Under the pieces are notes generated by a model. The model was not told where the DNA came from. It worked only from the letters and a program-made list of their open reading frames with translations, and did not search any database. Shown piece by piece: positions 6,291 through 44,851 of a stretch of 64,000 bases of DNA. The stretch is from Takakia lepidozioides (Eukaryota > Plantae > Bryophyta), in NCBI GenBank assembly GCA_030704615.1, contig CM060732.1, forward strand, positions 19,034,001-19,098,000, in the 5' to 3' direction. How positions within the stretch are numbered: position 1 is the first letter of the stretch; each line of letters opens with the position of its first letter. A program made the translations under genes and the position numbers.

Positions 6291-6293
<3 letters not shown>

Positions 6294-6359
<66 letters not shown>
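6294..6359. repeat. (TA)n microsatellite
   Basis: Direct read; absent at the homologous site near 60470. Confidence 0.95.
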
Positions 6360-6360
<1 letters not shown>

Positions 6361-6719
6361 TTTATCTGCTGGATCTTTGTACAGGTATTGCACACATATT
6401 TAAGCACATGTACCAAAAAATGAAGCTTGAGCCACATCCGTTTGTTGGGTGCAATGGCATGAGAGGATTTTCTTTCACATTAATAAACAAAAATTGGTTG
6501 ATAGGGTGAATGCGTCATTGCGGGGGCAAATGATTTGTTTGGGTTTGAAACTTTGCATGCGTGTACGTTGCGCACATACATGTAATTATTGAATGACATA
6601 TTTGATGCACACACACATTGAAGGTTGTTGTTTGCGTTTCGCTTATAATGAAGTGTATGGTTGCAAGGACACATTATAATATATGTCCCTATGTTCATTT
6701 GTCCGTATCAGGACTTTGT

Positions 6720-8821
6720 CCATCCCTTCCCAGTCTTTTCTCTTGGCACCCCATCCGAAAACAACCTAAGTACATCAGGCGGGAGCCGTGGGCAAGATGC
6801 CGCCCCAACGGTACCGGACGATGATGACGATGACAGTGACAGTGACAACAACAATGAGCATGGAATTAACCAGGAGGATGTGCAAGCCATGGAGGATCTC
6901 TTAATGCATCATGTGGGCGCTAATGCATCCCATGAAGAGGGAACCCGGCCAATCGATGATCCTGAAATGGCCCCCTCAAATGACATGGAGAGGGAGGCGA
7001 GAACTCCCTTGTACGAAGGGGCGAAAGTGAGTCGACTTTCAACAATCTTACTTTTGCTCAATCTTCAAATTCGATTTGGCATAAGTAATGTTGGGATGTC
7101 TGCCATAATGCGAACTATTGCAGACTATATCCTTGCTCCACACTTGAAACCCAAGATGTCACGGTCGCAGAAAGAGGCGCGCGAAGTCTTGGACTCTGTG
7201 GGGATGGGCTATAAGATTTTTCATGCATGTCCATGCGATAAAACCCTATACTACGGAGATGATTCGCATCTCACCAAATGCCCAAAGTGCAAGAAAGACC
7301 GATATCGAGATGATGTCCAAGGGAAAAAAGTACCACGCAAGGTATAAGCGCCATTTCTCCTCGCATGGAGATTACTTTATTTAATCTTCTCAATGTATGT
7401 AAAGTGTATTCCACAAAGTTTAGGGTTTAGAGAGTAGTACTAATGCAAGATCTGATTGTGGTTTTGGAAGGAGTGAGTGAGGAGTGGAAGGAGCGACGTT
7501 CGGTTTTGACCATTCACACCCAAATGAGGGAGAGGCTGCATAAAGAGAAAGACATAAGGGTGTCGTATTATGTGTGCTAATGGGATGATTACATGTGGGG
7601 GGCGTGGGGTATTTCATCCTAGAAAATGCATTACTTTCCAATCATCCCGCGATTGAGGGCATAGTACCGAAGCCCCGAATTGGCCAGACTCATGAGATGG
7701 CACGCCTCGCATTGGAGCCCCCCGGGAAAGGTGTGTGGGCCACAAGATTCACAAGCATGGAGGCATATTGAAGAGATGTGGCCTTTTCTCTTGGAGGACC
7801 CACGACATGTCCACCTCGGATGGGGTCAACCCATTCTCTGTCCAGTCATGTAGTCATTCCACTTGGCCGGTGACCATGGTGAATTACAACATCCTTCCGT
7901 ATCTTTCAATTAAAAAAGACCATATCATGTTGGCTGCCATTGTGCTAGGTGAGTGTACTCATTTCATGTTTATTATTGCCTTAGACTTTACATTAAACTT
8001 CTAATCTCTGACGCAATTCGGATGCAAGATTGATGAGTGACATAATCATGGAATAAGACGTGTAATTCATTTTGTAGTATAATTTGCATATTGGTGGAGC
8101 ATTGAAACAATGATGTGAATGTCTCTTAGGGAAAAAACAAGTGGCAAACATGGACACGTACTTGCGACCTCTTGTTGATGAACTCAAGGAGCTATGGAGA
8201 GGGTCCCGGCATTGGATGCTTCACTTGACCCTATGGGCCGAATTCCTGCAGAATACCCTTATCGCAAAGAGACCCGCTTCCTGAATCGAAGAAACAGATG
8301 GCCGGTAACAATCTTTTCAGATGAGAGACATCTTGCTTTGGACAATGCATGATTATCCAGGTATATTATATTCCCCATGAACAACCCGCATACATTCACT
8401 TGTCAATGCCGGATAATATCGATGAGGATTGGGATTGATTGAAGTAGCGGTGACAGTCTTGTGCACCGTAGTGGGGTAGATGACATTATGGGCCATGCAC
8501 ATGACAACTTTTTGTTTTTGCTAATGTGGCGGGATGTGTAGTACAGGATTAACTGTTTGCTCGGGGCTAAGCACCAAATGGTACCATGCATGCTTGCATT
8601 GTGGCGATGATCTTGATGCACATAGCTCCCGCCATCTTCACAAGATGGTGTATCCCAACTACCGCAAATTTTTTCCTATGAGCCATCGATGGAGAAGAAG
8701 AGAGAAACACTTGTTTGATGGCAAAGAGGAAGTACGTCCCCCCCCATGACACCGTCCGGGCAGTTTTGGGAGGACCGATGGAAGGAGGCCCATGCGGGCA
8801 CGGACGGTGAAGTGGACGTAC
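6720..8821 (+). pseudogene. CACTA Tnp2 (Transposase_21-like) transposase, 5' part, disrupted
   Basis: ARTPLYEG, YKIFHACPCDKTLY..CPKC, DGVNPFS..SHSTWPV...YN.PY, LLWTMHDYP, G.STKWYHACLHC motifs; stops and frameshifts. Confidence 0.85.
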
Positions 8822-10662: not shown

Positions 10663-11489
10663 CGCCCTGAGATGCATATTGAATTTTGTAAGTTAGCTCA
10701 TTGCTAGTTGATAAGTAGGGTTGGGGTGTTTGCTGGAACAATTCTAGGCTGTCATTGTCAGCTGCTAGCAGGAAGGCAAGGATGTATGCATAGATAGCTG
10801 AAGGATTTTGTGCAGAGGCATAGATAGCTGAAGGAGCAGGGATAGAGTGTGGGCCCAAATTCGTCCAAGAGGGCCGGATTTCAAGCTCCATTATTTCAGT
10901 GTCATCCATTCAGCCAGGGATTTCCTGGTGACATTGCCAAGGCTTTACTCGCAACACGGTGCTTGTAAAGCTTCCTTAGCTTGAATGCTGATTATGCTTG
11001 AATTATTAGGTTTGTAAAGCCAGTTTTGAAATTTTCATGGTAATCAGCTCTCTTGAAAATCTGTAGGTTGCAAGCCATTTACAGCGGGCCGTGGGTGGAC
11101 TGGAAGACAGCCATTGAAAGTCCTGGTGCAAGTTAATACCAGTGGAGAGCAGAATAAGCTTCATATGCCCTTTTGGTGCTAGTTATCTTCATGTATGGTA
11201 CTGTTGAACACCAACAATCTTTTGGTGAGATTCTGTCTTGGTGCGCATGTCTGATAAAGAAAGACGGTAATGTTTGTTCTGAAACCTGAAGGCGTGAAAT
11301 GATTCAACACAACAAGAGCATTACGCGTGTCACAGTACAAGCTGTAAGAAAGCAAGAGATACATAGTTATACAGTCAAACAGACAACTATCAGTTTCTGT
11401 GGAATCTCTTGCCAATGGCAGGATGGGTTGGGAATAGCCAAGTCAGGAGGTGAATGCCTGTCAAATTACCACGTCCTTTTCAACACTGC

Positions 11490-11925
11490 CCCTGCCCTGG
11501 TGGACATGTACGCCAATTGTGGGTGCATTGAGGATGCAAAGGGAGTGTTCAACACTGTGGCTGAATGAGATGTGGTGTCGTGGAGTGCGATGCTTGCTGG
11601 GTATGCACAGCTGGGGTGCAGGATGGAGGCTCCAACCTTTGAGAAAATGATGGGGGGTGAAGGCCGCCGACATAACGTTTGTGTGCGTTTGCAGTGCGTC
11701 TGTAGCCCTGGAAAATGGCAAAGAGATCCCTGGTGACATCATCAAATCTGCAATTGTACCAGATGTCATCCTGAACATGGCTCTGATGGCCATGTATGCT
11801 AAATGTGGGAGCATTGAGGATGCCAAGGGAGTGTTCAACACTATGGCTGAACTAGATGTGGTGTCGTGGAATGCGATGCTTGAAGGGTGTGCAGAGCAGG
11901 AGCACGGGATGGGGCTTTGGACACC
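11490..11925 (+). pseudogene. Captured PLS-class PPR gene fragment
   Basis: ALVDMYANCGCIEDAKGVFN..DVVSWSAMLAGYAQ and ALMAMYAKCGSIEDAKGVFN..DVVSWNAML; in-frame stop and frameshift. Confidence 0.88.
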
Positions 11926-12891
11926 TGAAAGCAAATGATGGAGAAAAGGATGAAGGTACCTTCTTCAACATATTTCACCCTGTTTTCCCTGCTAGTGTTT
12001 GCTTTGACAATTCTAGGCTGTCATTGTCAGCTGCTAGCAGCAAGGCGAGGATGTATGCATGATTTTGTGCAGAGGCATGGATAGCTGAAGGAGCAGGGAT
12101 TTCGTGTGGGTCCAGATTCATCCAAGAAGGCCAGATTTCAAGCACAAGATTACCTGTGATTTCCTGTGGATCAATAGCTACAAGAAACCTGCATGGGTAG
12201 ATGGTCAACTGGGAGCAGCGGCACAAGTGATAAAATCAGACACTGCTAATGAAGGCATCTTCTTCAACACATTTCACCCTGTTTTTCCCTCTTATCAGAA
12301 TCGGCCCTAAATTTACATGTTCAATTCTGCAAGTTAGCTGGTTGAGTGAATCTAGTTTGGAGTGACTTTGACATGATACTGCCAATGTGACAACAGGAAA
12401 GTGTCAAAAAATAGGTAACAGAGATGAGAGGGGCTGCTATTTCATGAGCCATGAGCCATGAGCGGCATGAGCCATGAGCAGAGTCGTAAGTGTGGAAAAA
12501 AACATGAGCAGCACTATTTTCCGGAAATGAGTGTCCGCGGGAATAGGGTTTAGGGTGCCACGGTCATAGGGGGAGAAGGACCTCCCGATGAAGGAGGTTT
12601 GGCAATGTTATTTAGAATTATATATTGAAAGGCAATGTTTCGCGAATGGTAGGGTGGTACTGCTCTGTACAATGGGGGCCCATTTCAGCCTACCAGCCAC
12701 TTGCAAAATCCACCCACACTCCCAATCCCAAATGAAATGAGCAATGACGCATTCTCGGAACGATGGACACAGAATAGAATAAAAAGAGGGCACAATGAGG
12801 TTTTTATTGATCCACATGAATTGCATTTGAAGCACGTCTACTGTGCTGATTGTGCAATCAAATCTTTAGCCCTGTGCCTACTGAATACAAG

Positions 12892-13727
12892 TCACGTTGT
12901 CAATGGGACTTCGACTGCTCTCAGAACTAGCTCATGAGTCATGGGGCTCCTCCAGGTAAAGTCGATTGCAGCCGTTGTACCGCCCCTAGTGATGTTCACC
13001 ACAATGTCCTGCCCTTCAATCATACCACCATCGAATATGGAAATCTTCACGTTTTCGTCGTCCACACCAATGCGAATGTCCCCATACAATGGAGAAGAGG
13101 AGCGCACTCCTTCAGGAGAATAGGTCTCTCCGATGGAGTCCACCCACATCCAGTGGCAGCAGTTCCACCGCAACAGCATAGCAGTGCGTCTTCTTCTGCA
13201 TGGGTGACCGTCGTAGCTGGGAAAATCGGAATTGAGGATGCGCAGGAGCCACGGACTCCTCAGACCAAGATCGTCACCCCGCTCGAAGGCGTAGTGGCCT
13301 AGGATATACTCAAAAGCCACCAATGTTTCCACAATCGAACCAGTATCTTCTCTGTAATTGTGTACCAGATAACAATGTCTCCCGATGTGGCCGAATACAT
13401 TGCATAATCGATGCCTCCAAATGGGCAGTCGTCCCGGTTCCGGAAGCACGGCATCCTTGCAAAAGAGGACCTGAGGACGACTTGGATGCCGATGACAACG
13501 ACCTTGCGGACAGCTACGAAGCCCTTAGATTTTGGAAATGATGCGAAGCGGAAGAGCAGTCCGGCCTCCAATAATGGAGCATCTGGGTCCCACGTACCCA
13601 CCGACGGAGGTGGAACGTGTTCATCACGCCAGCGGTGGATGAACCCATACATCTTTCTCATCAACAAGTTATAGTTTGAGATCTGCCACTGAAGTCCATC
13701 CCCCCGGATGGAAATTCGGCGCCGCAT
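12892..13727 (-). CDS. Orphan cargo protein A (one frameshift near 13357)
   Basis: ORFs 13299-13727 and 12892-13449 join with a 1-nt shift and align along their length to the paralog at 13990-14590. Confidence 0.6.
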
Positions 13728-13989
13728 TTACATCGAAGAGGGGATGGACTTCGTCGTGTCCAGTGGCTATCGGCCCACCTGGCAGTGACTGCCCATAGTT
13801 TGCATGGCAGGGTAGGAAACTGAAACGGCTACATTCATGCAGCCGCCAATCTTCATCGGTCCACGATCCTGTAGGGGGGGAATTTAAATGTGCCTTGGAG
13901 TGTTTGTGAGGAATTGCAGCGTTAGCTTGAACTTTTTCCAGCCACCGCGCTGCTCCTCCTCCATCCGGGAGCTGCTGTCATTGAGCGTA

Positions 13990-14590
13990 CTCCGCTACTC
14001 TTTTTCAAGGATGCCGTGCCGCCGAAATCCAGCCAGACTGCCCTTATCATGGCCACGATTATGCTATGTTCAAACCAGAATCAGGAGACATTATTGTCTG
14101 GCTCTCTGTTTTCACAGACGCTGCTGGAATCAAGCAAGAGTCTTTGCGCGCAATGGAGTATCTGGAGGGCTATTACCGCTTTGAGCGAGGTGAGGGCGAG
14201 GGTCAATGCGGTCCGTGGGTCCTGAAAATTGTTGACCTCGATATACCAAGCTGGAAAGGGATGCCGGACAGATCACGCACGGCCTCGCTTTGGCGCTGGA
14301 ACTGCTGCCAGTGGACTAGGGAGGACGGCACCGGGGAAAACTATATACGTGCAGATCACTCCGCTCTTCCAGTGTATGAAGACATTCGGCTGAGTTGCGA
14401 AGACGAATTGCACGGGCACATGAGGCCCACAGTGACCTTGTCAATGTATGATGGTGGTATCATTGATGGACATGACATTGTCGTCGGCTCAAGCAAGGGC
14501 AGCAGAACGACCGAATTGCAGTTTACCTCGAGGTGCCGCAGCAGTGATGAGCTTGTTTTGAGGGGTATCGAAGTTCCGTCGACTTGGTGA
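13990..14590 (+). CDS. Orphan cargo protein B, paralog of A (frameshift near 14035)
   Basis: Shared blocks R.SF.RMPC.RN..DCP..G.DYAM....SGDI..W, PW.L.I...D.PS..G.P.R.R.A.L.RWNCC.W, Y.DIR, DGG.I.G.DIVV, ELVLR..EVP. Confidence 0.65.
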
Positions 14591-14807
14591 AGCCCATGTA
14601 GAAGGAGGAAGGGCTTAGTTTTGTCTGCAGTTGGTAAATGTGAGACATCGTGTCCAATCAATAAACCCATCGTACCTCACTTCTGTATGATTGTGTTTCA
14701 TTATGTTGAATAACTGTCGGAATTGGCCCACTGTTTACAATTTGATGTCTCATTTCTACAATTTGTGTGTCCGGATGAATATACCAGAGTAACGCCATGT
14801 CGGACAT

Positions 14808-15563
14808 GGAAATGCGGCACCGCATTTCCATGTCGGACATTGGAATGCGTTGCCGCATTTCCATGCCGACATGGAAATGTATGAACCGCATTTCAGTGTC
14901 GGACAATGGAATGCGGTGCATCATTTCCGTCCAGGTACACGAAATACCAACACGGGTCTATAAATTGGACAGACAACGAGGTTGGCATTGCAAATGCGGC
15001 GACGCATTCCCAGCTTGGCAATGGAAACTTCTTTTTGGACAAGGGAATGCGGTGCCGCATTTCCGTCCAACACTTCGAAAAGTGCACCCATTTCCGACCA
15101 GCTCGATGGAATGCGTTACCGCATTTCCGTGAGAGGGTCTGCAAATGGACAAATTGCGATGTCCGTTCTGGAAATGTGGCGCCGCATTTCCATGTCCGTC
15201 ATCGACTTTTTTTTGACAATGGAATGCGGTGCCAGTTTTTGCTGATGGGCCTGCAGTTCGAACAACGACCATCCCCAATATGGAAATGCGGCACCGCATT
15301 TCCAATTCCGCCATCTCGACCTCCTTGTTCGACCTCTGTAAGCGTGGTGGCATCCATGCAATGAGCGGGAGAGGCCAAAACTGGCGTGTGGACAAAGGAA
15401 ATTTTGGAAATGCGGCACCGCATTTCCAATCGGCCGATTACTTTTTACTATGCCAACATGAAATGGAAATTTTTTCCCTCCCCTGTTTTGGAAATGCGGT
15501 GCCGCATTTCCAAAAGAGGTTTTTAGAGTTGCCAAAATTTTGGAAATGCGGTGCCCCATTTCT
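14808..15563. repeat. Palindrome array 1: about 13 copies of GGAAATGCGGYRCCGCATTTCC, irregular spacing
   Basis: Copies near 14808, 14841, 14873, 14908, 14990, 15043, 15107, 15170, 15221, 15282, 15406, 15491, 15542. Confidence 0.92.
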
Positions 15564-15699
15564 GATTTTGGGAGCGTCGTGGTTTGGGCGATTGTGTGGC
15601 TGGAATGCACACTGGAGAGGGGTCACGAATGTCGGGGAGAATTTCCTTTATATACTCTGGAAGAGAATTTACATTTACAGAGACTTCATTAAAATTCTA

Positions 15700-16188
15700 T
15701 TAATCTTGAAAATCATCCGAATCCTCATCCTGTTCTACACTGTCCTGCTCCGCCTCCACCCCCTCAGTGCCTTTCTCATCTCCAGCGGACTGCTCGTTGG
15801 CCAGGCTTTCGAAAATCCCATCTTCCCCTTGCGGAACTGTCCATCTCACCTCCGTTGGGTCGTCTTCCTCCCTGTCTGCGTCGCTCTCATCCGCTGAATC
15901 ACATATGTACTTTCGTACCCGTCTACCTGTCTGAGCTGCTGCCAACTCTTTCCTTATCCTTCTGTCCTCCCTAGCCCTCTCCAAAATCTGCTCTACTTTA
16001 CTGGGATTCTCACTTCTTCTAATCGCTGTATTTGCGAGTTTAGCTGCATAACTAGGAAGGGAGTAGTCCCTCACCGGGCTCGTCATGAAGTCGGCCCTCG
16101 CAAAGAACGGGACATTCTTCCTGGCAGGAAGTGTAGGCCCTACATGTTTCGACCCGGACCCTGCAATCCTGCACATGACAATCATCAA
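15700..16188 (-). CDS. Small hypothetical cargo protein, basic helix then acidic tail
   Basis: 162-aa ORF with protein-like composition (KVEQILERAREDRRIRKELAAAQ...DESDADREEDD); no family recognised. Confidence 0.4.
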   Translation of the reverse strand: MMIVMCRIAGSGSKHVGPTLPARKNVPFFARADFMTSPVRDYSLPSYAAKLANTAIRRSENPSKVEQILERAREDRRIRKELAAAQTGRRVRKYICDSADESDADREEDDPTEVRWTVPQGEDGIFESLANEQSAGDEKGTEGVEAEQDSVEQDEDSDDFQD

Positions 16189-16269
16189 CGAGACTAATGA
16201 GAACCACAGTCGGGAAATTCGTTTGACAAAAATGACCCAGAAGGCTTTGCAAACTTACAATGTTTGCAC

Positions 16270-19200
16270 TCACTCGTATTCCGGGTTCTCCTCCGCATCA
16301 ATGTCCACTGTGTCTTCCTCGGACTCCGACGAATCCGAGGAGACTTCCGCTCTGTTGGGAGCCTTAACATTCCGTTGCAGCCCTTCCAGATGGGATCCCC
16401 ACACGGATGAATCCTCCTCGTAGGCAAAGAGGTGCCGGTCGGAAAACCGCCCAGCCCACATTGAGGCACCTGTTACAATGCCATCCACACATTACCACAT
16501 GGCGCTTCAGATGTTGCGAACTACATCCTAACGAGAATTTGCAGAACAGCATAGATCAAGATTCTGCATACCTGTCCCACAGATGAGGTCGAGCACTGTG
16601 CCCTCCACGTCTGTGCATGTCTCCATAATTGTCTGAATGAAGGCAGGGCTCCGAGTCCGTGAGTACCGCAGGGGTTCCGTTGAAGTGAGGCTATGAGGGA
16701 GAAGTTCCTTGGGAACGTTGTTGAACAGAACGTCGTAATCGAGGGGGTCGCAGTTCGGGTCAACCTTTCCTCCCTCCTTCCGGAAAGCAAAGGTGGAGTT
16801 CTCCTTCACAAAGCAGTATGCATCGAACTTCGTCTGCATACACAGGGGGAACGATTAGAAACCGAATGCGGCACCGCATTTGAAAACACCCAAGCAAATG
16901 AATGGACGAGTGCCAGTGTCGTAATCACCTTCTTCCCTTCCGACCGAAGGCCCAGTGTGTTGATGCACGTCCACTTCTTTTTCAGAATCGGGACGGCGCT
17001 CTTGCGGGTCCACTTCGCAATTCCTGTCTGAGTGTTTTTCCTCTGCTCGCCAGGACAACCACACAGCCTCTGTCGTCCAACACCATGCGGGCAAGCCCGA
17101 ATCCTTTCTTCCAAAAGTCCTCCGAGTACCTGTTCCAAGATGGCAAAGCTTGCAGTCCTTCCACAGGCTCTCCGTCCGGAATATCCAAGATGATCATATC
17201 GCAAGACCACTCGGTGGCATTTCCGCCCCTCCTACAATCCTTGTCTGCACACACCCTCTCAAAGAACGAGACCATATTCTGAAATCCTGGGGTGTCGGAA
17301 GGCTCTTCGGCAGTCGCCTTCTTCAGTGCTCTGCCCTTCAGACCCTCCATGGTCTTCATGTATGCCAACTTGGCTGCCCGTCCATCCAAAGCCGCCAAGA
17401 AACTCTCATTTACACACTGGACTACTGTTTCGGGAGCCACTTTCGGCCTCTTCATTTCCACCGGCTCGAAAGGGTGCCCCCCTGGGGGGTTGAAGAGTGC
17501 CTTCTTTGCCGAGCCAGTTCTCGTGCCTCTCGTGACAACGGTGGGCACAGGGGAGGCAGCCTGCGTTTGGGGGGGTGGGCTGGTTGCAAAGTCTCCATCG
17601 GAGTCCTCTTCCTCACCCTCTTCCTGAACAGGCTGTTTCTGCTTCTTCGTTTTGGCGGGTGTCACAACAGCTGCTCCTTGCTGGCGAGTCCTCTTCTTCG
17701 ACCCCTTCTGTTGGGCCTGCACAGCTGCATCCACCGTCTTTTGTGCCATCTCAGCTGCCTTTCTGGATTCTTCCAGAGCAGCAGATTCCTTTGCCGACTT
17801 TGGCCCAGCAGGGACACGTCTTTCCTTTCTCTTCTCTTCTGCCAAGGCGTGCAGATCTTTCTCAGACTCGTCAACAATACCGCCAGACATGTCCAGGTAC
17901 CAGGGGCATCCAACGAGATGCGCGGGATGCCATTGTTTCTGCATCTCGGGTGTGTAGACACAGCTTGGGCCCGCCACGGTCCAAGCCATGAAGAACGGGG
18001 GCTCTTGAGCCAGGGCCCCTGTCTGAAGGAGCACGTATTTCATATACCTGCAAGGCAGTCAGCATGCGTGAGCATAAGATTGGATGAACCTACTGGCAGA
18101 GTGCCACCGAAAACATAAAATGCGAATGCGGTGCCGCATTTCCGAGACAAACCTCGTAACCAGGCTTCGCATACAAGGGCAGCTGTGCTTCACCTGTAAA
18201 CAATTCGCATTGCAGCTTTCCCCGCTCCCTCCTGATGTGTAAACTCCACGCTCCTTCTTGCTGTCTGTAGCTCTCTGGCGAAAAGGTTGTCCTTGTACGC
18301 ACATCTGAAACGTGTCACGTAGTCTTCCAATGTCTGTGTTCCATCCCATTTGACGTACAAGCCGAACGAATTTGTGTGCATTACGACTTGCTCCTTCGCA
18401 TTCGACATTACCTGCGATTCCCAAATGCATTGTCACGTAGCAGTTCAGGGAATTCATTTCAGAAAAGCAAATCTGGGGAAGTACCTTGAATTACCTGGAA
18501 CCACCAAGTCATGCGGTTGAGCCACACATCCACTGCAGGGTCGGAAACTTCGAGTGGAAAAGACCACATTGTCCTTATGCTCTCGGATGCATTCCAGATC
18601 GACAGCCACCGTGTCTGCCATTTCCGATCCAATGTCAGGAGCTGGAAGAGAGTGGCTATTGCTAGGAAGGAACTTCAGTGCATTGAAACCTCACCTTCTC
18701 TTTCGCCTCAACACATGCCGTTGAGAGGTGATGCAGTTTCTCCAATTGCATGGTCGGCTGCATGGCCCGAGAATAGTGTTTTGCAATCTCGGGGATGAAG
18801 TCCTTTCCAAGTGCCGGATCTGCAATTGCCACCAGCTTCACAAGCTTTGACTTGTATTTGGTTCTGGACTTGACACCGGCTTCCTTCAAGTGCTCAGTCA
18901 ATGACTGCAACGTTTTGACCTGCCCCTCACTTTCCATGAAGAAGCGTTTGGCATGGGCCAAATCCAGCTTGATGTTTGACTGCCAACAAAAACATGCAGA
19001 AGCGTTACATTCGATTCATGTGGAAAGATTACTGGAAATTGGGGAAGGATGAGCAGAGGGAAATTGGAGGACGACTTACTTCGTATATCACCTCCACCAT
19101 TCCATCCATAGTGAGACGATACCATGTCCGGTCTGTTTTTGCAACGGCTTTCTGAATGAGCTCGGGCTCCAGCATTTCCGCAAACATCTGCGGATCAGTG

Positions 19201-20618
19201 AGACCAGTTTTCCTCACCCTGTACAGCATATGTGCCATGTGGGTATGCACGTACGCATTCTCAGTGACCCTGCAAGGCACACTCTCCAGTTCAGTACACG
19301 GAAGCACGGAAACAAACCAGAATGGAAACCGAAATGCGGCACCGCATTTCGAACGTGCTAGGGAGGGTATGAGTATCTTACGAGTTGAGGTCCGCCATGG
19401 CATTCTTGAGCAGGGAGGAGTCTGCCGCCTTCACCTTCAGGATGACACACTCCACCATGTAATGCCAGCCAATGTGCTTGGCATGGTTCTGCTTGATGTA
19501 CTCCCACCAGGCAAGAAGTCGGTGATTCCCGTCCCACACAAAGAACATTTTACCCGACATATGGCCGAAGTCTGGATCACCCTTCAGCGTCGCCTCGAAT
19601 TCGTCGTTGCGAGTGTGCCAGTGGGTATCCCACGTTGACAATTCATCGGCAGTGGGTCCACGAGTTTCGCCGTCCTCATTCTCAATGGAAACGTAAAACG
19701 CTGCCGATCCCAGACGGTACCCTTCTCGAAATGCGAACTTGAGCTTATCCACATCTCCGGGAAGGGCCTGCCTGACGATGGGAAGGGAGACCATGCGACA
19801 GAGTGGGATTCGAAGAGTCCGCTGGAATACCCTGCTGCCCAGAACTCTGCCAATGCTACTGTGTGTCTCCTCCAACATTTTATCCGCTGCACTTTTGAAA
19901 TCCTCCGGAGACATGTCTGTAGGTGCCGGTAGTGGCTGAGCAGCTGGAGCATCCTCAACTGGAGCTGCACTCTGGGCCTGTTTGCGGGCAATTCTGCCAT
20001 TGCAGAGGCCTCCTCCGGGCCTGCTTGCTCATCGGTGGTGAGGTCTTGCTGCGAACGTTGAGCGGCAGCACCCTCCTCCGGTACCAAATCGACAAAAACG
20101 GTCGATCCCATTGCCTTCGCTGCAGCAGAGACGGCCCCAACATCTGCAGGCGAGAAATCCTCCAGGAACTGAGCTTCAGCTCGTGGAAGCGGTTTTGCGG
20201 GAGATTGTTCGGCCGTCGCCCTGATTGCCTTCTGCTTCCTCATCCTTGCAGGTGAAGGTGTCTGCTGCAATTGAATCTGTCTTTTACCCTGCTGCTTCAT
20301 TCGCGTTGGGGGGGGTGAATCGGCCTGAGCCGGTTCAGAAACCAGTAGAGGGACGGGCTGCTTCTTCTTCGACTTTGCTGGAGAAGGGCCCGACCCCTGC
20401 TGGCGATTCTCCATGACCAAAGAACGCGAGTCGATCTCTGGGGCTTTGAACTTGCCCTTCGAAGCCGCGTCTTTGAAACGCACAGGGCTAGGCCCGGCAG
20501 GAATACCCGCGCTCGGGGATCGGGTGGGTGTACGTGCTGCAGCTAGCTCCTCGGACTCTTCCTGCGATCCCTCCAGCACGTCCACCTTTCCTGTTAGGCA
20601 TGCAAACATGTTCTGCAT
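16270..20618 (-). CDS. ParB/Srx-like domain plus beta-class N6-adenine/N4-cytosine DNA methyltransferase-like fusion, about 1,200 aa; proposed exons 20618-19382, 19269-19080, 18979-18696, 18644-18495, 18411-18194, 18047-16929, 16833-16572, 16469-16270 (5' end uncertain)
   Basis: FFVWDGNHRLLAW (19519-19533); SCDMIILDIPDG (motif IV-like, 17174-17185); RSPAFIQTIMETCTDVEGTVLDLICGTG/ASMWAGRFSDRHLFAYEED (motifs X-I-II-like) joined by phase-correct intron 16470-16571. Other introns are GT-AG and phase-compatible; two 1-nt shifts fall in A runs (near 19982 and 17021). Confidence 0.78.
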
Positions 20619-21235
20619 TCAAGTCTCCTAGCATTCAGTCTAAGAATTACAGAAGCAAAATGGGGGGTTCGGTGCTCGATCAGCTGCGCGCAGCCCGATC
20701 GCATGGAGCTCTCACTGGTGGCTGGGTTGCCTGAGTGGCCTGCTGCTCGGAGATGGCAATCTCCTCCTGTAGACGCATCTGCTTCCTCCCCTTCGGCATT
20801 GGCCTACGTCCGAAGTATAATTTTCGGAGCTTGCGACGAGGTCTCCTGTCTGGTGCACGAACTCCCCCCCTCTCAGGTTCGAGCATAAGAAGAACAGAGA
20901 CAGGGAAAAGGGGCAAAGAGTGCAGATGGAAAGGGCGCGAGAGGGGTGACTGAGGAGACACGACAAAAGTAGATGAAACGGCGGTGATGCACCACTTGGG
21001 TTCGAAAGGGTTGGACGAAAGTGTCTCCTCGTGGACTTTGCGTCATTACGAAATTCGAATCGTTCAGGGTACGCCTGCCGTCCGAAAAACAAACATCATT
21101 ATCCAACGGTCAGGCCCCGCCGCCTCATGCCACTTCAGTCAGATAGAGTGCCGACATGTGCCGCAATTCCGTTGCTCCACGTGTTCACATTTCAAGGCAT
21201 TTCCGTCCCAGCGTCTGATGAGTTGGAGTGAAAAT

Positions 21236-22707
21236 GCGAATGCGGCGCCGCATTTCCGTTAAGTACCATCACGAAGCTACACATCCGTACTTGTTGGAAG
21301 AAAATGCGGCACCGCATTTCCGTTCCACCTTCACATACCTTAGTTGTTGAACGGAAATACGGTGCCGCATTTCCGTCCCACAGCTCCATGTATGAGATAC
21401 AAAAGGGAAATGCGGCGCCGCATTTCCGTTCTGGAATGTCGAAAGGTGCGATTCGGACGGAAATGAGGCACAACATTTCAGTTCCCGTGGTTCATGATTT
21501 TCAATGTGAACGGAAATGCGGTACCGCATTTCCGTTCCCCCTTCACATACCTTAGTTGATGAACGGAAATGCCGTGCCACATTTCCGTTCGGGAAAGTAT
21601 AGAGGTCTCACCTGAACAGAAATGCGGTGCCGCATTTCCGGTCTGGAAAGTTTGAAGGTCTCACATGGATGGAAATGCGGCACCACATTTCCGTCCCACA
21701 GCTCCAGGCCTCATATACAAAACGGAAATGCGGCGCCGCATTTCCGTTCTAGAATGTCGGAAGGTGCGACTCGGACGGAAATGCGGTGCCGCATTTCTGT
21801 TCCCGTTGTTCACGATTTTCAGTCAGAACGGAAATGCGGTACCGCATTTCCGTTCTGTAGAGTATTAAGGTCTGACCCTGGCGGAAATGTTGTGCCGCAT
21901 TTTTGTTCCACAGCTCCATGCCTCACATACCAAACGGAAATGCGGCGCCGCATTTCCATTTTGGAATGTCGGAAGGTGCGACTCCGACGGAAATGCGGTA
22001 CCGCATTTCAGTTCCGATGGTTCACGATTTTCAGTCAGAACGGAAATGCGGTACCGCATTTCCGTTCTGGATAGTATGAATGTCTCAAGTGGTCGGAATT
22101 GCGCTGTCTCAAGCGGTCGGAATTGCACTTGGCTCCATGCAGCAGATACAAAATGGAAATGCGTCGCCGCATTTCCGTTCTGGAATGTCGGAAAGTGCGA
22201 CTCCGACAGAAATGCGGTGCCGCATTTCTGTTCCCGTTGTTCATAATTCTCAATCAGAACGGAAATGCGGTACCGCATTTCCGTTCCACCTTCACATACC
22301 GTGCTTGTTGGATGGAAATGCGTTACCGCATTTCCGTTCTGGAGAGTATGAATGTCTTGTGAGGACGGAAATGTGGTGCAGCATTTCTATCCCTCAGCTC
22401 CATGCATCAGATACAAAATGGAAATGCGGCGCCGCATTTCCGTTCTGGAATGTCGGAAAAGTGCGACTCGGACGGAAATGCGGTGCCGCATTTCTGTTCC
22501 CGTTGTTCATAATTCTCAATCAGAACGGAAATGCGGTACCGCATTTCCGTTCCACCTTCACATACCGTGCTTGCTGGATGGAAATGCGTTACCGCATTTC
22601 CGTTCTGGAGAGTATAAAGGTTTCCCCCGGACGGAAACTCGGTGCCGCATTTCCGTCGCTCTGGTGCATGACCAAGATGCAATACGGAAATGCGGCGCCG
22701 TATTTCC
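21236..22707. repeat. Palindrome array 2: about 28 units, 53-bp period (22-bp palindrome + 31-bp spacer), higher-order 4-5-mer structure
   Basis: Starts at 21353, 21406, 21459, 21512, 21565, 21618, 21671, 21724, 21777, 21830, 21883, 21936, 21989, 22042, then 22155, 22208, 22261, 22314, 22367, 22420, 22474, 22527, 22580, 22633, 22686. Confidence 0.95.
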
Positions 22708-23135
22708 GTCCACCAGCAATCGAAAGAATCACTCGGGACGGGAAATCTGGAAATCATGCTGAACCTGAATGGGTTGCATTGTTCCGAAACAACACAATTG
22801 CGGCCAGTCTTGATGAGCACAACTTGGTTGTCTGACCGTTTTAACTAACAGTACTGGCACTTGTCAGTGCGAACGTTCCTGTCTGCACCGAGAATACTGC
22901 TGGATCCACCCTCAGGAGAAACTGTCAGGAGATGTTATTTCGTCGCCGAATCGGCCATCATTGTCATACTTACTGGCTATGGAATCAAACCTCCCACCTT
23001 CATGCATGTAGCTTGAAACAATACTTTCCACTTCAATGTGCGACTTCCAATCGTCGATGGACTCCGCATGGTGCCTGTGAGCCTTGGTCTGTCGCTATAC
23101 TGAACCTCGCACTTGCCAACTTCGTGCGGTGTTCG

Positions 23136-26100
23136 ATGGCTCCGAATTCCTACGCTATAGTTTGCTGTCCTCCGCAACTTGGGAGAGCCTGGATCCCAAA
23201 CGAGGGAGGACTTTGCAGAGTGACTGAAACTTACCTTTGTTCCAAATTCAAGCTCAAACCGGGCACAGTTTATTTGGAAGAAGAAAGGAAGGATGTTCCT
23301 GGACAGGTTGACGAGACCATTGTCGTGCTAGGTAACGACGGAGGTTGCGGAATCGAATGGCACGTACCCCCATCAGACACCATCCTGTACCGAGCTGTGG
23401 GAATGCCCATTCCCTTTCCGAATCAGTCGCTGCCCACACCATCCACAAAGGAGTCCGGAAACCGACAGGCGGCCACTGCCAACAGAGAGGTATGCAACGA
23501 TAATCATTCCCGACCTGGACCGTCAAGACCCTCCATAGCTTCTCGTGTGGACGTATTCGACATTTCCGACGAGGAAGATGATTGCATTGAGGTACCCATG
23601 TCCTCCACACGGTCGTTCAAATCCGGCATGGACGTCTCTGTAGGTGCTACGCATGTGCCCTCGAGCATAACTCCAACCCGGTCCATTGTGCAGCTCCTAC
23701 GACAACATCACCTCGATGGTTCTCGCTCCGAGCTGGCTGCTCTCGACTATGCCAAATTCCCAGTCAGAAAGGTAACGTTTCTGCCTCCCGAAGTCGATGG
23801 CAATGTCATCTTCGAGTTTCCACCTGTTTCTTCGTCAAACAAAGCCTCCGGGATGTTAACAGACATGGATCGAAAGCATGACGGACACCCCTGGTGTGTG
23901 ACGAAGACCAGTAGCACGAAAATTGCTGATGGTGTTCGTGTACGATATGTCCTCTGTGCGGGGAAGCTGAGGTGCCTCAATCCCACCTGCTTCCACTTTC
24001 TCTCCAAAGGAGGGCGGAGAAACGAGACGGATTGGACTGGCACAACGCATCATCCATTCATTGTCTCCAGCCAAGCTCCTGCGGGTTCTTTCAAGTGTGC
24101 ACATTGCAAAGAACCACCGACGTGCATGTCCATGTGCAGAGCCAAGCAATATTACGTAATCCATTTGCTCCCGGACTTGACTAGAGCTTGCATACACGTT
24201 GGGGTCCACTGCCACCCCTTGGCGAGAGGCAACATGCGTGAGGCTGTGCAGGAAGCACACGACATCATAAAAGAGGAGGTGAAATTGAGCCCCGGAGCCA
24301 GACCAAAGCAGATTCAGCTGAAGGCAGCCCACAAGATTGCTCTTGGCAAAATCATGTCTGAAGATGGTTCCGACCGAGAGCCCTTGACCGAAGACGAGAT
24401 GCGTGACCTCTTGGAGTCCGTCTCGCACGTTTGTAGTCCGAATGTGCGGAATCACATCGTATCTTGCAAGCAGGAGTTCGGCAGGGGGTCGGACATGTAC
24501 TCAATCCTGGAGGTGAAACGAATGACTGGATATGACTACATCCAAGGTAGCAGGTTTCCAGGGCAAGGCAGCGAATCCGATCGTTGTTACATTTTCAAAA
24601 TGTCGACGTGTGGGCCTGGGAGTGGAGTCGACTTGGTCACTCGCATGACAACTGGAAACTTGTCGAATGCTTGGGTGATGTTTGATCACATCAAGCGAAT
24701 TACAAACCATCAGTGGGTGACTATGGGTGCGCATGTTTATGACTATCACTCCAAGAGGCTCATGACGATTGCAATCTGCGAGATGAAAGGGGAGGACACA
24801 CAGTCCGAGATGCATCTGTGGGAGGGCACAAGGGCGGGATTGCCAGAGCCCAATTTCAGGGGATTCATGGCAGACAACGCTCAGGCCAACTGGGCAGCGG
24901 TGCGGCGTGTGTACGGTGAGGACCCCAATGTTCCAATGGAGGGGAAAGAGAGATCCTGTGGATTCCATTGGATGCAGAGTCTATCCCACTACACTACCAA
25001 ATTTGTTGCTAGCTCATTCCAGGCTGAACACCGTGTCCTTTGTACGGCGTGGAAGGATGCACCCACATTTGATGACGCGGAGGTTAAGTTTGCTATCATC
25101 GAGGCTTGGTGGAACACGTCAGGTGCAGTGGAGACAACCAATCTGGGAGCATTGCACAGCTGGTTGGGGTGGTGGCATTTTCGGTATCGACAGTTCGGAC
25201 AGTACATGCGGGAGGTAGGCTGCTGTCATTTTCGTTCATTTGTCTTTCTGTTACGGACATTTCGATTGGTCCCTCACCATTGTTTGTGTCCTTCTAGGAG
25301 CGGTGCTTGGATTCCGACACGGACATGCCGAACACGAATATGGCAGAATCGGTCCACTCCTCCTGGCGAGCGTCTTCTGCCGCACATCTGGTGGACGTAG
25401 TGACGGCCACAACGGAGGACATCGACAGAGCAATCATGCAGCAAGCCACGTACTACAAGTTCCTGAGCGGCAAACAATGGGGCTTTGGGCCGGACAGGGA
25501 GGAATTGTTGGTACGAACAGCTTCGAGGTCCAAGAATCCACTGAAATGGGCGACAGCATTGCGAGAGAAGATCAAAGGGACGCCTCTGCACCGCAGAGGT
25601 GAACACCTAGAGGGGGACGTCCGGACTCGCCCTGTCAGGCGGAGGATTGAAGAGGAACCCGGGTGCGAAGAGGATTCCTGGAGATCCGACAGGAACATTC
25701 GGACAGCACCTCGAGGTCCCGTCATGTTGCCGCACAATGTGTCTTCCAGCAGTGGAAGCCCAAGAAATTCCAGATCGCCGTCGCCTTCAACCGGGGATTT
25801 CGTGCGAGAAATTCCCACCGCTCCCTTGCCCCAGATTCCGCCCGCTGTTATGCAGTATGGCCAAGCCATTGTGGAGACGACTGTGTCTGCATCACAGTGG
25901 AGAATTGCTCGCACAAAGCCGTCGTTTCGAGGAAGGTGTTCCGCAATTCGTGTGGATACACGGCAACGTTGTTTAGAGATGATAAGGAGGAATCCAGATG
26001 GGGCTGTCCCTGCTCCTACTTTTACAGGAAGATTTGTCCATGCAAAGTTTGCGGAGGCGACAACCACCCAGTTCTGGTTCTGCAGGCACGACATTATGAC

Positions 26101-26728
26101 TTGCGTGTATGGAAAGCCCAAGTACGGCATACAAACAATGCCAGAGGCTCCCCCGGTGTGGCCGGTGGAACCAGGCTGCGATCTGAGTCAGGTTGAGGCC
26201 GACGCCCTTACCGCCGCAGGATTTCGGATGGTGCAGCGCACTGACGTCCCCAGACAACCATTTCCGCTTCCACAGCCTCCACCACCGACCCCTGTGAGAG
26301 CAAGAACAATGGGACACGACAGCTCTAAGCATCCTACACACCGTTGGGGGAAACCGAAGAGGCGGCGACCTCCCTCAAAAGTGAACGAGACAAGGATGGG
26401 GAATGCACTTCGGATGAACTGTACAATCCAGAGCTCGACAGAAGTGCCCCCACCAGGATTCGGGCGTGTGTATCAGATGGCCACGGCGGGCTCAGCTGTT
26501 CGCAATGAGGTGTACACCATCACCATTTCAGAATTACCCACCTGCAATTGCACCGACTTCCAGATCATGGCGAACAAGGGGGCATCATACTGCCCTTGCA
26601 AGCATTTGTACTACGTGTACCTAAAGAGACTCCGTTGTAATTCCACAACTCATCACTTCATACATGCACCAGGGTTGAGCCCCCAGGAGGTTCACACTCT
26701 TCTGAATATGGATCCAGGGGACCAGTGA
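23136..26728 (+). CDS. Intact Mutator-family DDE transposase (about 1,169 aa) with GCM-like Zn domain and C-terminal SWIM finger; exons 23136-25214 and 25298-26728
   Basis: VMFDH, FMADNAQANWAAVRRVY, SCGFHWMQSL (CxxH), TNMAESVHSSW; SWIM CNCTDF...CPCKHL; CAGKLRCLNPTC...CAHC...C...HVGVHCHP; 83-nt phase-0 GT-AG intron joins the two long ORFs. Confidence 0.88.
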
Positions 26729-29014
26729 GCTTGGCTTGCGGTCCCATACAATGGTACGCCCATCCTTTTCGGATAGTAGAACTGTACTGCTGCCAGTACC
26801 TCAGACTCTGGCCACAGAAAGGTCCGACATATGTCTTGCCTACCAGTAACCTGTTTTGCTCGAACTAAGATATTACTATATCGTTCACTTGTTTCCACGT
26901 GCATGTATTTTTGTATGTTGGAGGGTTCATGTTTTTCTGCTTTCCGAAAACTTGCTTTCCTCATTCGACCTCCGACAAGGAAATGCGGCGCCGCATTTCC
27001 AAGTATCGTCGTAGGTACTGGTAGAGGCGGCCTTCGCCAACACCAAACCGCTCCGAAATTTCGCACGTGCGAACCCTAATGCGGCACCTTATTTCCCAGT
27101 TCAGTTGCAAACCTTTCCCGCCGAATACCCGAAGAAGACAGAATTGTGAAGTACTGCAGACTGTATTGGTGCAGACTCCATTGGTTCAATCGCGGCAAAA
27201 GGGTCAGCTTCATTCGAATGTTAAGGCATGTAAAACCGCGGAATACTCTATACAGGCCAGTATGCGACGTCCTTTTGCAGTGGTATACTGGATTTTCCGT
27301 TGCACGGTCACTTATTTCCATGAGCGGATCTAAAAAACCATGAGCGGACTTGTTACTGACGACATATCTTCGCCGCATTACATGATCTGGAACGTCCAAA
27401 AACGGCAAGGTCAAATAAAAAATTATTATTTTAATACTTGTTTAATCTGCCGCATTTCCAAATTTGGAGGAGTCCGCTCATGAAATCCGCGTATCTTAGA
27501 CTTCGGCTCACCGCTCATGCGGCTCATGCGGCTCATGGCTCATGGCTCATGGTTTCTGCTCATGAAATAGTAAACCTCGAGATGAGGAGAAGCTGTGGAA
27601 TGAATACTTATCTGAGCCCAGTCACTGATGGGTCAACCGGGGCAGAAAGGTGAATGCCTGCTACATTTCAGAGAGTAGCAGACGCAATTCAGTATATGAA
27701 CTAGTGTGCTACGCTGAGTTGGGTGTTTCCTAGAATAAATGTAGGCTGTCATTGTCAGCTGCTAGCAGCAAGGCAAGGATGAATGCTTGATTTGTGCAGA
27801 GGCATGGATAGCTGAAGGAATAGAGATAGAGTGTGGGTGACGCAGGGTGCTGGGCAATGGGCAAGATGTCTTTGTATAAACGTGAGTGACCTTCCTATCA
27901 TCCTGGGTTTCATTTTTAGTGCATGTTTCTTTGTGAAGTATCTGACGACTTCGCCAATACACACCAACCTTTTTGCTTTGGTTTGTTTAGGACATGGGAT
28001 AGAAGTTACCATAAACAACACTGGCATTGGTTTTTCATATATGGTATTAGATAATTCTCTTAATTGTTTCCGCCTTGGCAGGTTGCTCAGTGACCTTCCC
28101 TGGACGCTTTGGAGTATAGCGAGTGAGTGTCTCACAATGCAATATTGGTTGGTGTATCTTATGCAAGAACTTGGAAAACAAACAAATGTCCTTGCTGTAG
28201 TAATTCTTAAAGCCATGCAAGCCGTTTTTGATGGGTTGCAGATTGATGGAATACATGAGTAGTTAGAAGATCCTGGGTGAACACTTTTCAAAGTGTTATA
28301 GTTAGACAAAATAATTCACATGAGAACATGCGACTATTTAATGTATTTTTAGATCGCAACAAAAATGATAATGATAAATAGATTGGTAAATAGAGATGGT
28401 ATGCAATCTCTTGGTTTTGCTCAGCTTGTTGCAGTTATGTCTTGCTGCCTTGTTCTCTTTGTATTATATATTATATTTCATTGTTGTAATAGACATGTAC
28501 ATGACTGCTATCATAGTCATAATAATGACTACATCTATTTTCACTCTCCAATAGTACTACACCACGTGGCAGAAATACAAATATGTAAAAAAATAGCAAT
28601 ACACCCCAAAAAAACACCCATCATGACACATGTCAATCTGCTGATGGACCACGTGTAAAAACTGCAACGTGCCACGTGTTGCAACCGGATTAGCACACCC
28701 GTAGTCATAGTTCGCAGTCATGGAGAGCTAAACACTCTGCCACGTGTCATTTCCTGCATCGAGCACGTGCCACTCTTGCACAGCCGCTGACATGGACTAC
28801 ACTGTCCGTTCAGTCATTCAGTAAAGCCAGCGTGTATGACTACCCCCACAGCTGCTCTGGCGCCACGTGACAGCCAGCCTGGAGAGTCATATCTGCCATG
28901 TCACAACTGACTAGGTCTTTACGTCTGCAGAGTCAGGAAGTCGTAAATGGCTTCCATGATTGCATTTGCAGTCATAACACAGAGACGTAAAAGCCGCAAT
29001 TTGTTGTAGTGTAC

Positions 29015-37417: not shown

Positions 37418-37438
37418 GTCCCATGTCTTTCATTTCTT

Positions 37439-44760: not shown

Positions 44761-44851
44761 TCTCAACGTCAGAAAGGTGCTCACTCACAAAAGGGTTGTT
44801 AATCGAAATCAGTAAACGTGAGGACACGGCTTTTTGAGAGGGGAAGGGTAA

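What the first reader, a model, noticed from the sequence alone, without database searches (positions are those of the whole stretch)
16270..17210. Bacterial-type beta-class amino-methyltransferase domain with spliceosomal introns and a DIPD catalytic motif
Seen: motif order IV (MIILDIPDG), then X-I-II (RSPAFIQTIM..VLDLICGTG-ASMWAG..DRHLFAYEED), with an intron exactly at the GxG loop. Known: this order defines beta-class 6mA/4mC MTases; eukaryotic examples are rare (4mC enzymes of bdelloid rotifers and Marchantia). The motif is DIPD, not DPPY/SPPY, and the last codon GAC is one base from TAC (DIPY). Inference: old horizontally acquired MTase, either still active in relatives or retained as a dead SAM/DNA-binding module.
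Basis: partly seen in the sequence, partly recalled or inferred. Interest (0 to 1): 0.85.

Follow-up and report, generated by a model that had tools for sequence, protein, structure and literature searches.

The report
Plant transposon's ParB–methylase-like accessory gene
This is the tail end of a spliced, here broken, gene inside a 15-kb many-copy jumping gene, encoding a bacterial-type DNA-methylase-like domain with an altered active-site motif that likely helps the element bind and protect its own DNA, a kind of helper gene already described, but never tested, in algae.

Summary
In detail: the motifs, their beta-class order and the intron 16470-16571 are there. An unrelated locus has the same intron at the same codon and phase. 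The domain ends a 9-exon, about 1,236-aa gene with an N-terminal ParB/Srx fold. That gene lies head-to-head with a Mutator-like transposase in a 15,150-bp young, many-copy element with an 8-bp target duplication and 43 copies of a 20-bp palindrome. Homologs occur in Riccia, Selaginella and Adiantum; 10 of 20 testable related loci show the same head-to-head transposase. DIPD is not a recent one-base loss of DIPY: Selaginella has DMPD, 0 of 15 Riccia domains have the aromatic, and no D-to-Y variant is listed among sibling copies. The domain is under purifying selection (9 of 11 listed variants silent). ParB plus N4/N6-methylase transposon accessory proteins are already reported in brown and red algae, untested. 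New here: a land-plant Mutator-like version with a conserved non-aromatic catalytic motif, in a young family suited to biochemistry. Catalytic activity is unresolved; a SAM-binding, non-canonical module is my best guess.

The parts
12421..12428 (.). left copy of the 8-bp target-site duplication (GAGATGAG)
   Evidence: sequence; joints 12420->27579 with 8 shared letters in contigs of runs X1, X3, X4
12429..27578 (.). whole 15,150-bp Mutator-like DNA transposon; young, many-copy family
   Evidence: empty-site joints; consensus-like contigs about 0.2-2% different from this copy; very high summed depth
12429..12479 (+). left imperfect terminal inverted repeat (13-bp core plus CATGAGC repeats)
12892..13727 (-). 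unknown accessory ORF A, broken here by a 1-base indel at 13358
   Evidence: no Pfam or NCBIfam hit
13985..14590 (+). unknown accessory ORF B, paralog of ORF A (44% identity over 160 aa); 1-base indel at 14035
14809..15562 (.). cluster of 11 copies of the 20-bp palindrome GAAATGCGG-YR-CCGCATTTC
15700..16085 (-). small ORF right behind the gene, with a Y-x-LP-x-YA motif also found behind the methylase domain in 5 Riccia gene models; separate gene or alternative last exon, unresolved
   Evidence: E 0.001; E 0.049
16270..16469 (-). exon 9: end of motif I, motif II (AYEED), acidic tail, stop
16470..16571 (-). intron 8, GT-AG, phase 1, inside the motif I glycine loop
   Evidence: same position and phase in L006
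16572..16833 (-). exon 8: motif X region (YSRTRSP) and motif I (DLICGTG)
16834..16928 (-). intron 7, phase 0, holds one palindrome copy (16863); donor 16928 preferred, other in-phase GTs exist
   Evidence: phase-0 intron at the matching place in L006
16929..18047 (-). exon 7: linker and methylase motifs IV-VIII; motif IV DIPD at 17185-17174; 1-base frameshift at 17034 in this copy
18194..19269 (-). exons 3-6 (19269-19080, 18979-18695, 18641-18495, 18411-18194): helical middle region, collinear with Riccia P0156
19382..20585 (-). exon 2: low-complexity N-terminus (1-base break inferred near 19990) and ParB/Srx-fold domain with DGNHR box
20716..20799 (-). tentative exon 1 with start codon; in frame only if the second of two close AG acceptors is used
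   Evidence: not independently supported
21237..22706 (.). array of 27 palindromes between the two divergent genes, 53-bp spacing in 23 of 26 intervals
23136..26728 (+). transposase, two exons (intron 25215-25297), about 1,169 aa, open frame: D515, D580, CxxH 608-611, E710, C-terminal SWIM-like finger
   Evidence: (SWIM E 0.063); motif names recalled
27513..27578 (-). right imperfect terminal inverted repeat
27579..27586 (.). right copy of the 8-bp target-site duplication

Best explanation
The flagged stretch is the C-terminal amino-methyltransferase-like domain of a spliced, about 1,236-residue accessory protein with a predicted ParB/sulfiredoxin fold, encoded head-to-head with the transposase of a 15-kb Mutator-like transposon; the protein likely loads on the element's own 20-bp palindromes and helps the element stay active, with the methylase domain likely acting as a SAM-binding, non-canonical module rather than an ordinary 6mA/4mC writer. 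Shown: gene structure, element boundaries, repeated pairing with the transposase, family-wide loss of the motif IV aromatic, purifying selection, and that this copy is frameshifted while consensus-like sibling contigs are not. Inferred: nucleotide binding by the GxxR box, palindrome binding, SAM binding, the anti-silencing or transposition-helper role, and lack of canonical catalysis. Odds by step: transposon accessory gene 0.95; binds the palindromes 0.55; not a canonical base methylase 0.6.
For: Nine exons, 8 GT-AG introns, no internal stop once two 1-base breaks are read as X; collinear with Riccia P0156 (1,207 aa, E 1e-35). Three introns shared in position and phase with L006. ParB/Srx fold: model pLDDT 90.1; the top 8 VIA rows are all ParB/Srx-fold (PadC Z 7.8, rmsd 2.7, 94 aligned), next row Z 3.3; G144, H146, R147 and R63 at least 90% conserved in 53 sequences. 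Beta-class methylase: Atlas 0.95, PF01555 clusters; CcrM and M1.HpyAVI top. Element: 8-bp duplication and empty-site joints. A related transposase lies upstream on the opposite strand in 10 of 20 non-redundant loci with at least 5 kb upstream, divergent in 10 of 10. 43 of 43 palindromes lie inside the element, three in introns of this gene; 38 at up to 2 mismatches against 0 in 100 shuffles. Motif IV lacks the aromatic in Riccia (0 of 15), Selaginella (DMPD) and 10 of 11 locus clusters that keep D/N-x-P, while motif I and the motif II acid are kept. The aromatic stacks on the target base in rotifer N4CMT (PMC10406627). 9 of 11 listed common variants are silent, expected fraction 0.23-0.27, P about 6e-5 to 2e-4. 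Analogy: VANC binds motifs in VANDAL non-coding regions and introns (PMC5735166); Plavaka PAG3 sits beside inverted-repeat arrays.
Against: No binding or activity data. The transposase is an equally natural binder of the palindromes. The palindrome has no match in 83 of 83 fetched loci, and of 10 related spacers only L009 was shown to hold a clear array (51-bp period, other motif); most of those loci are decayed. High CpG retention in the element (o/e 0.84 against 0.24 in the LTR element) is not specific, since CACTA remnants show 0.66-0.70. Keeping the SAM motifs plus D and P of motif IV over three plant lineages also fits a live enzyme, and one Adiantum protein keeps DVPF. The methylase model is low-confidence (pLDDT 41.8, TM about 0.3) and is of the Riccia homolog, not of this protein; the VIA wide search put Trm14 first and beta-class enzymes at Z about 6. 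The variant lists were cut to the best-supported rows.
Confidence: 0.5

Rival explanations
1. Active non-canonical DNA amino-methyltransferase: the ParB domain brings it to the element and it writes 4mC or 6mA on or near the palindromes, the stacking role being taken by another residue such as the conserved P-x-W-N tryptophan.
For: Motif I, motif II acid, motif IV D and P, and a basic residue at the motif X lysine position are kept; purifying selection; Adiantum DVPF; arm CpGs kept in 75 of 86 places while the central CG remains in 11 of 43; proposed for the algal proteins (PMC12477816).
Against: The aromatic is absent in nearly all readable members and position 4 varies freely (D, T, S, R, G, E, N, A); HPTxKP of motif X is rebuilt; the tryptophan aligns with one already present in CcrM, so it is not a new substitute; arm CpG retention also fits selection for a binding site.
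Confidence: 0.27
2. The palindromes are transposase sites and the ParB-methylase-like protein is a general transposition helper (a MURB-like or target-selection partner, or an NTP-gated clamp) with no role in epigenetic marking.
For: The main array lies directly upstream of the transposase; internal and subterminal repeats bound by transposases are common (recalled); a 2026 preprint abstract reports sequence-specific activation by the AtMu1 transposase itself (search listing only); the N-terminal region resembles DUF3723, a conserved Starship cargo gene (Atlas 0.90, lead only).
Against: The palindromes are internal, kilobases from the termini, and sit in three introns of the accessory gene, the VANC-like pattern; the termini carry a different repeat.
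Confidence: 0.18
3. A recently inactivated DIPY enzyme: this copy or family lost activity by a single TAC-to-GAC change.
For: GAC is one base from TAC; phage enzymes with DIPY and DLPY exist.
Against: Selaginella has the same D at this place (DMPD); Riccia 0 of 15 aromatic; no variant at 17176 among the rows listed at 3% in run X3.
Confidence: 0.03
4. A captured host-gene fragment (Pack-MULE cargo) or a chance motif resemblance without function for the element.
For: No Pfam hit for single window exons; this copy is broken.
Against: Shuffle control, shared introns, selection, pairing with the transposase in 10 of 20 loci, many paralogs in Riccia (26 hits).
Confidence: 0.02

Closest known systems
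ParB-like + N4/N6 DNA methyltransferase accessory protein of Sola1-1_Ec32, Ectocarpus (PMC12477816)
   Same: Two-domain architecture, size (1,104 aa against about 1,236 aa), gene on the strand opposite to the transposase in a giant DNA transposon, proposed self-binding and self-modification (passage read).
   Different: Host is a brown alga and the carrier a Sola-1 element; the passage gives no motif IV state; sequence relationship to this protein was not tested because the sequence was not on hand.
Plavaka accessory genes PAG2 (PF01555 + SET) and PAG3 (ParB + 2OG oxygenase), Bostrychia and other red algae (bioRxiv 10.1101/2025.02.11.637652)
   Same: ParB-like and PF01555 domains as mobile accessory genes, also on Chondrus Mutator elements; tandem inverted-repeat arrays next to the ParB gene.
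   Different: There ParB and methylase are on separate genes with other partners; the carrier is EnSpm/Plavaka; here they are fused and motif IV lacks the aromatic.
Beta-class amino-MTases, PF01555 (CcrM, M1.HpyAVI/DpnA, phage DLPY/DIPY enzymes, phage ParB_N-MTase fusions such as that of Vibrio phage D93)
   Same: Motif order, motif I and II, fold by several indirect tests.
   Different: No aromatic in motif IV, rebuilt motif X, introns; the ParB domain is of a DGNHR type with insertions and finds no phage match, so a joint transfer from a phage ParB-MTase is not supported.
Marchantia MpDN4MT1a/b and rotifer N4CMT (eukaryotic 4mC writers)
   Same: Beta-class fold of prokaryotic type in a eukaryote.
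   Different: They carry TSPPY/SPPY and are shown to be active host genes; no ParB domain is mentioned in the passages read; not described there as transposon cargo.
VANDAL/VANC anti-silencing system of Arabidopsis (PMC5735166)
   Same: [quoted passage not shown] That VANDALs are Mutator-like is recalled.
   Different: VANC is not described as a ParB or methylase protein in the passages read; its motifs are arrayed in one orientation, here they are palindromes; anti-silencing is shown there and only inferred here.

Membership tests
Beta-class amino-MTase (PF01555) | Motif order IV-VIII before X-I-II | tested here: met
Beta-class amino-MTase (PF01555) | Profile match at the gathering score | tested here: inconclusive
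   2 of 8 Riccia homologs pass, 5 below, 1 no hit; single window exons give none; the spliced window domain was scored only against my own profile
Beta-class amino-MTase (PF01555) | Circularly permuted Rossmann fold | tested here: inconclusive
   low-confidence model of a Riccia homolog; Foldseek top 10 all CcrM or M1.HpyAVI, 9 at E<=0.001; VIA mixed; Atlas 0.95
Beta-class amino-MTase (PF01555) | SAM-binding motif I (D-x-x-x-G-x-G) and motif II acid | tested here: met
   DLICGTG and AYEED align with phage enzymes; L006 lacks the first glycine
Beta-class amino-MTase (PF01555) | Catalytic motif IV [DNS]-P/x-P-[YFW] | tested here: not met
   DIPD here; aromatic missing family-wide with rare exceptions
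Beta-class amino-MTase (PF01555) | Forms 6mA or 4mC on DNA | not testable with these tools
   needs an assay
ParB/Srx superfamily | ParB/Srx fold | tested here: met
   best E 0.013, none at 0.001; Z 7.8, top 8 rows all this fold
ParB/Srx superfamily | GxxR nucleotide-binding box | tested here: met
   DGNHRLLA, conserved in alignments; meaning of the box recalled
ParB/Srx superfamily | HTH that binds a parS-like palindrome; CTP-gated clamp | not tested
Mutator/MULE DNA transposon | DDE transposase with CxxH and C-terminal SWIM | tested here: inconclusive
   motifs seen by eye and partly kept in related, decayed loci; SWIM E 0.063; no MULE Pfam hit; layout recalled
Mutator/MULE DNA transposon | Terminal inverted repeats and 8-11-bp target duplication | tested here: met
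   8-bp duplication and short imperfect TIRs; 8 bp also fits other superfamilies (recalled)
Algal-type ParB-methylase transposon accessory protein | ParB-like + PF01555 fusion opposite a transposase in a large DNA transposon | tested here: met
   against the description
Algal-type ParB-methylase transposon accessory protein | Sequence homology to the Ectocarpus or red-algal proteins | not tested
   sequences not on hand
Marchantia/rotifer 4mC writers | SPPY catalytic motif | tested here: not met

The most novel reading that the evidence does not exclude
A widespread land-plant transposon lineage carries its own read-write epigenetic machine: a ParB-like, nucleotide-gated clamp that loads on helically phased 20-bp palindromes and a methyltransferase with a rebuilt, aromatic-free active site that puts a bacterial-type mark (4mC or 6mA) on the element and shields it from 5mC silencing.
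Probability: 0.2. Interest if true: 0.9.

Novelty: new variant of a known kind. Interest (0 to 1): 0.52.

Why it matters
[quoted passage not shown] This family gives a young, many-copy element with a nearly intact gene, an obvious candidate site (a 20-bp palindrome at 53-bp spacing) and relatives in liverworts, lycophytes and ferns, so the question becomes directly testable. The conserved aromatic-free motif IV also warns that 'PF01555 on a transposon' need not mean 6mA or 4mC is written.

Tried and rejected
No whole genome is held, so no copy census or alignment of motif IV over genomic copies. No RNA holder listed. Two runs guessed to be RNA gave no spliced joint: X11's contig at 16576-16880 runs through intron 7 and stops before intron 8, and X9 laid nothing; no evidence on expression either way. 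Summed contig depth is not a copy number. The empty-site joints may come from paralogs of the repeated flank rather than from an empty allele; they fix the boundaries either way. Pfam on window exons: blank except weak SWIM; Pfam on 53 ParB-domain members: only weak hits, DndB in 3. PDB sequence searches weak. No prokaryotic or viral relative of the ParB domain: viral contigs, genome contigs, phages; none for the Riccia methylase patterns in viral contigs. A search with the window's motif IV region among shorter proteins found nothing. The Atlas could not read the window exon, so Atlas results are for Riccia P0156. A motif X-I profile recovered only L006 among 80 loci. DUF3723 kinship rests on one Atlas search at 0.90 and was not confirmed by Pfam. 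CpG retention as a sign of self-protection was rejected as unspecific. Rfam: no match. No tree was built, so donor and order of events are open. Look-ups in earlier findings by place and sequence were empty.

Full report
Observation. On the minus strand the window reads MIILDIPDG (D-I-P-D at 17185-17174), later YSRTRSPAFIQTIM...VLDLICGT, a GT-AG intron at 16571-16470, and GASMWAG...HLFAYEED up to a stop at 16272-16270. Two things were missed inside the stretch: a phase-0 intron at about 16928-16834 and a 1-base frameshift at 17034. The consensus-like contigs of runs X4 and X5 carry one more base there at full depth; in X1 and X3 about a third and a half of the summed depth shows it, so the loss may or may not be private to this copy. 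No whole genome is held. The host is likely a seed-free land plant, inferred from the named homologs and from PPR, CACTA and Ty3 remnants nearby.

The gene. The domain ends a 9-exon gene, 20799-16270, with 8 GT-AG introns whose phases fit. With two 1-base breaks read as X it gives 1,236 aa without an internal stop and is collinear with Riccia sorocarpa P0156 (1,207 aa). Exon 1 and the break near 19990 are inferred only. Locus L006, an unrelated intron-bearing contig, has introns at the same codon and phase after the ParB domain, before the TKFDAY strand and inside the motif I loop, which supports the splice model without RNA. Of 11 common variants listed for run X3 in 16294-17288, 9 are silent in my frames (expected fraction 0.23-0.27; P 6e-5 to 2e-4), and 11 of 19 in a diverged contig. 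These lists were cut to the best-supported rows (15 not shown). In one search's list, 5 of 5 coding variants from the ParB domain onward were silent and 8 of 8 in the low-complexity N-terminus were not.

Domains. The exon-2 domain has 501 relatives at 50% clustering. Its model (pLDDT 90.1) matches ParB/Srx folds: the top 8 of 48,161 chains by VIA (PadC Z 7.8, rmsd 2.7, 94 aligned; next row Z 3.3), Foldseek best E 0.013. For the methylase, single window exons hit nothing in Pfam, but the spliced domain scores 48.7 bits against a Riccia profile (300 shuffles, best 3.0), and that profile scores three phage PF01555 enzymes at 22-29 bits. Of 8 Riccia proteins scanned, 2 pass the PF01555 gathering score, 5 fall below and 1 has no hit. 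The Atlas places the Riccia domain with PF01555 clusters at 0.95. A low-confidence model of a Riccia domain (pLDDT 41.8) returns CcrM and M1.HpyAVI as Foldseek's top 10, while the VIA search is mixed.

Motif IV. Phage relatives read DPPY, DLPY and DIPY, so D-I/L-P is ordinary; the fourth residue is what differs. Selaginella has DMPD (2 near-identical proteins). Of 19 Riccia rows, 15 carry the motif and none has an aromatic. Adiantum has DVPF and DFPI. In the 80 best of 280 metagenome loci (44 clusters at 95%), 45 frame hits were aligned. Read by eye, 11 clusters keep D/N-x-P: fourth residues N, E, S, S, R, R, R, G, A, stop and W. I left out frameshifted rows and rows that lost D/N-x-P; three of those decayed rows have F or Y in that column. 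The W and the stop could be CpG decay of an arginine codon (inference). No variant at 17176 is listed at 3% in X3. So the aromatic-free motif is old and family-wide. Motif I and the motif II acid are kept; motif X is rebuilt but keeps a basic residue. In rotifer N4CMT the aromatic is modelled to stack on the target base (PMC10406627, passages), and SPPY-to-APPA abolishes activity (PMC8885841, passages).

The element. Joints 12420->27579 with 8 shared letters in X1, X3 and X4 define a 15,150-bp insertion, 12429-27578, with the duplication GAGATGAG and short imperfect TIRs. I laid 7 of the 17 listed runs. Long sibling contigs differ by about 0.2-2% and the depth is very high, so the family is young and many-copy; the number was not measured. 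A two-exon, open-frame transposase (23136-26728, + strand) shows D, D, CxxH, E and a SWIM-like finger. That layout is Mutator-like by recall; Pfam gave no MULE hit. In 10 of 20 non-redundant loci with at least 5 kb upstream of the ParB exon a related transposase lies upstream on the opposite strand, as here. The element holds 43 copies of a 20-bp palindrome, none elsewhere in the window: 27 between the two genes at 53-bp spacing, 11 downstream of the accessory gene, three in its introns and two singles. Its central two bases are always CG, TG, CA or TA (11, 15, 8, 9), while arm CpGs are kept in 75 of 86 places. The motif is absent from all 83 fetched loci; L009 has a 51-bp array of another motif beside its transposase.

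Mechanism. Best guess (0.5): a transposon accessory protein that loads on its own palindromes through the ParB-like and helical parts and helps the element escape silencing or transpose, with a SAM-binding but non-canonical methylase domain. Rivals: an active non-canonical 4mC/6mA writer (0.27); a general transposition helper, with the palindromes serving the transposase (0.18); a recent DIPY loss (0.03); chance or captured cargo (0.02). None of binding, expression or catalysis was shown. Against the self-protection idea, CpG retention is also high in neighbouring CACTA remnants.

Prior knowledge. [quoted passage not shown] The Bostrychia preprint describes PAG2 (PF01555 + SET) and PAG3 (ParB + 2OG) beside inverted-repeat arrays (10.1101/2025.02.11.637652, passages and section 8). 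VANC motifs accumulate in tandem repeats and introns (PMC5735166, passages). A 2026 preprint covers DAM domains of retrotransposons (10.64898/2026.05.21.726589, parts 1-2 of 5 and passages; 'ParB' and 'Mutator' 0 times). Iyer 2016 (PMC4738411, passages) lists ParB-HTH-fused chlorophyte Dam, a different group. Walker 2021 (passages) and the Starship preprint (passages) were used for contrast. I found no description of the land-plant Mutator-borne form or of its motif IV in searches. Iyer 2011 (cited) was not read and no supplement was opened; these could already list such proteins. Earlier scan notes report similar, mostly dead copies in other genomes; they led me to the algal papers and are not counted as support.

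Verdict. Real feature; new variant of a known, untested kind of transposon accessory protein; this copy is a pseudogene of a young family. Interest 0.52.

Noticed in passing
window 12892-13727 (-) and 13985-14590 (+): Two divergent paralogous ORFs of unknown function inside the element's left end (44% identity over 160 aa), each with a 1-base indel absent from sibling contigs; no Pfam, NCBIfam or locus hit.
   Followed up: partly
window 15700-16085 (-): ORF behind the methylase stop sharing a Y-x-LP-x-YA motif with the tails of 5 Riccia gene models; possibly a further conserved accessory gene.
   Followed up: partly
window 21237-22706: Palindromes spaced at 53 bp, about five helical turns, although the spacers differ; the central dinucleotide is always pyrimidine-purine, as CpG decay would give.
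   Followed up: partly
window 23860-24220 (+): Cys/His-rich stretch in the transposase N-terminal half that looks like a GCM/WRKY-type zinc finger (recalled, no hit).
   Followed up: no
P0156 residues 150-660: The Atlas links the ParB-plus-helical region to fungal DUF3723 (0.90), a conserved Starship cargo family; a lead that DUF3723 may be ParB/Srx-like.
   Followed up: partly
window 11460-11935 (+): Decayed PPR-repeat fragment in the repeated flank into which the element inserted.
   Followed up: partly
window 5900-8740 and 60060-62740; 29115-30820 and 63650-63950: CACTA-like transposase remnants, present twice in the window at about 88-95% identity (DUF4218, DUF4216).
   Followed up: partly
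window 32528-38137 (-): Ty3/gypsy retrotransposon with gag, protease, RT, RNase H and integrase pieces; CpG strongly depleted.
   Followed up: partly
window 38060-39050 and 44850-45860: About 1-kb inverted arms, 87-100% complementary, 5.8-7.7 kb apart, with GGCTGTG microrepeats; possibly a foldback element or inverted LTR pair.
   Followed up: no
window 58596-59825 (+) and near 5500: 409-aa ORF ending in a stretch that looks SET-like by eye (recalled); no Pfam hit at 0.01; its end is repeated near 5500.
   Followed up: partly
L009 4930-5367 and 7464-8308: Related element with 51-bp and 122-136-bp tandem arrays of other motifs between its transposase and ParB gene.
   Followed up: partly
window 46216-46715: 500-N assembly gap.
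   Followed up: no
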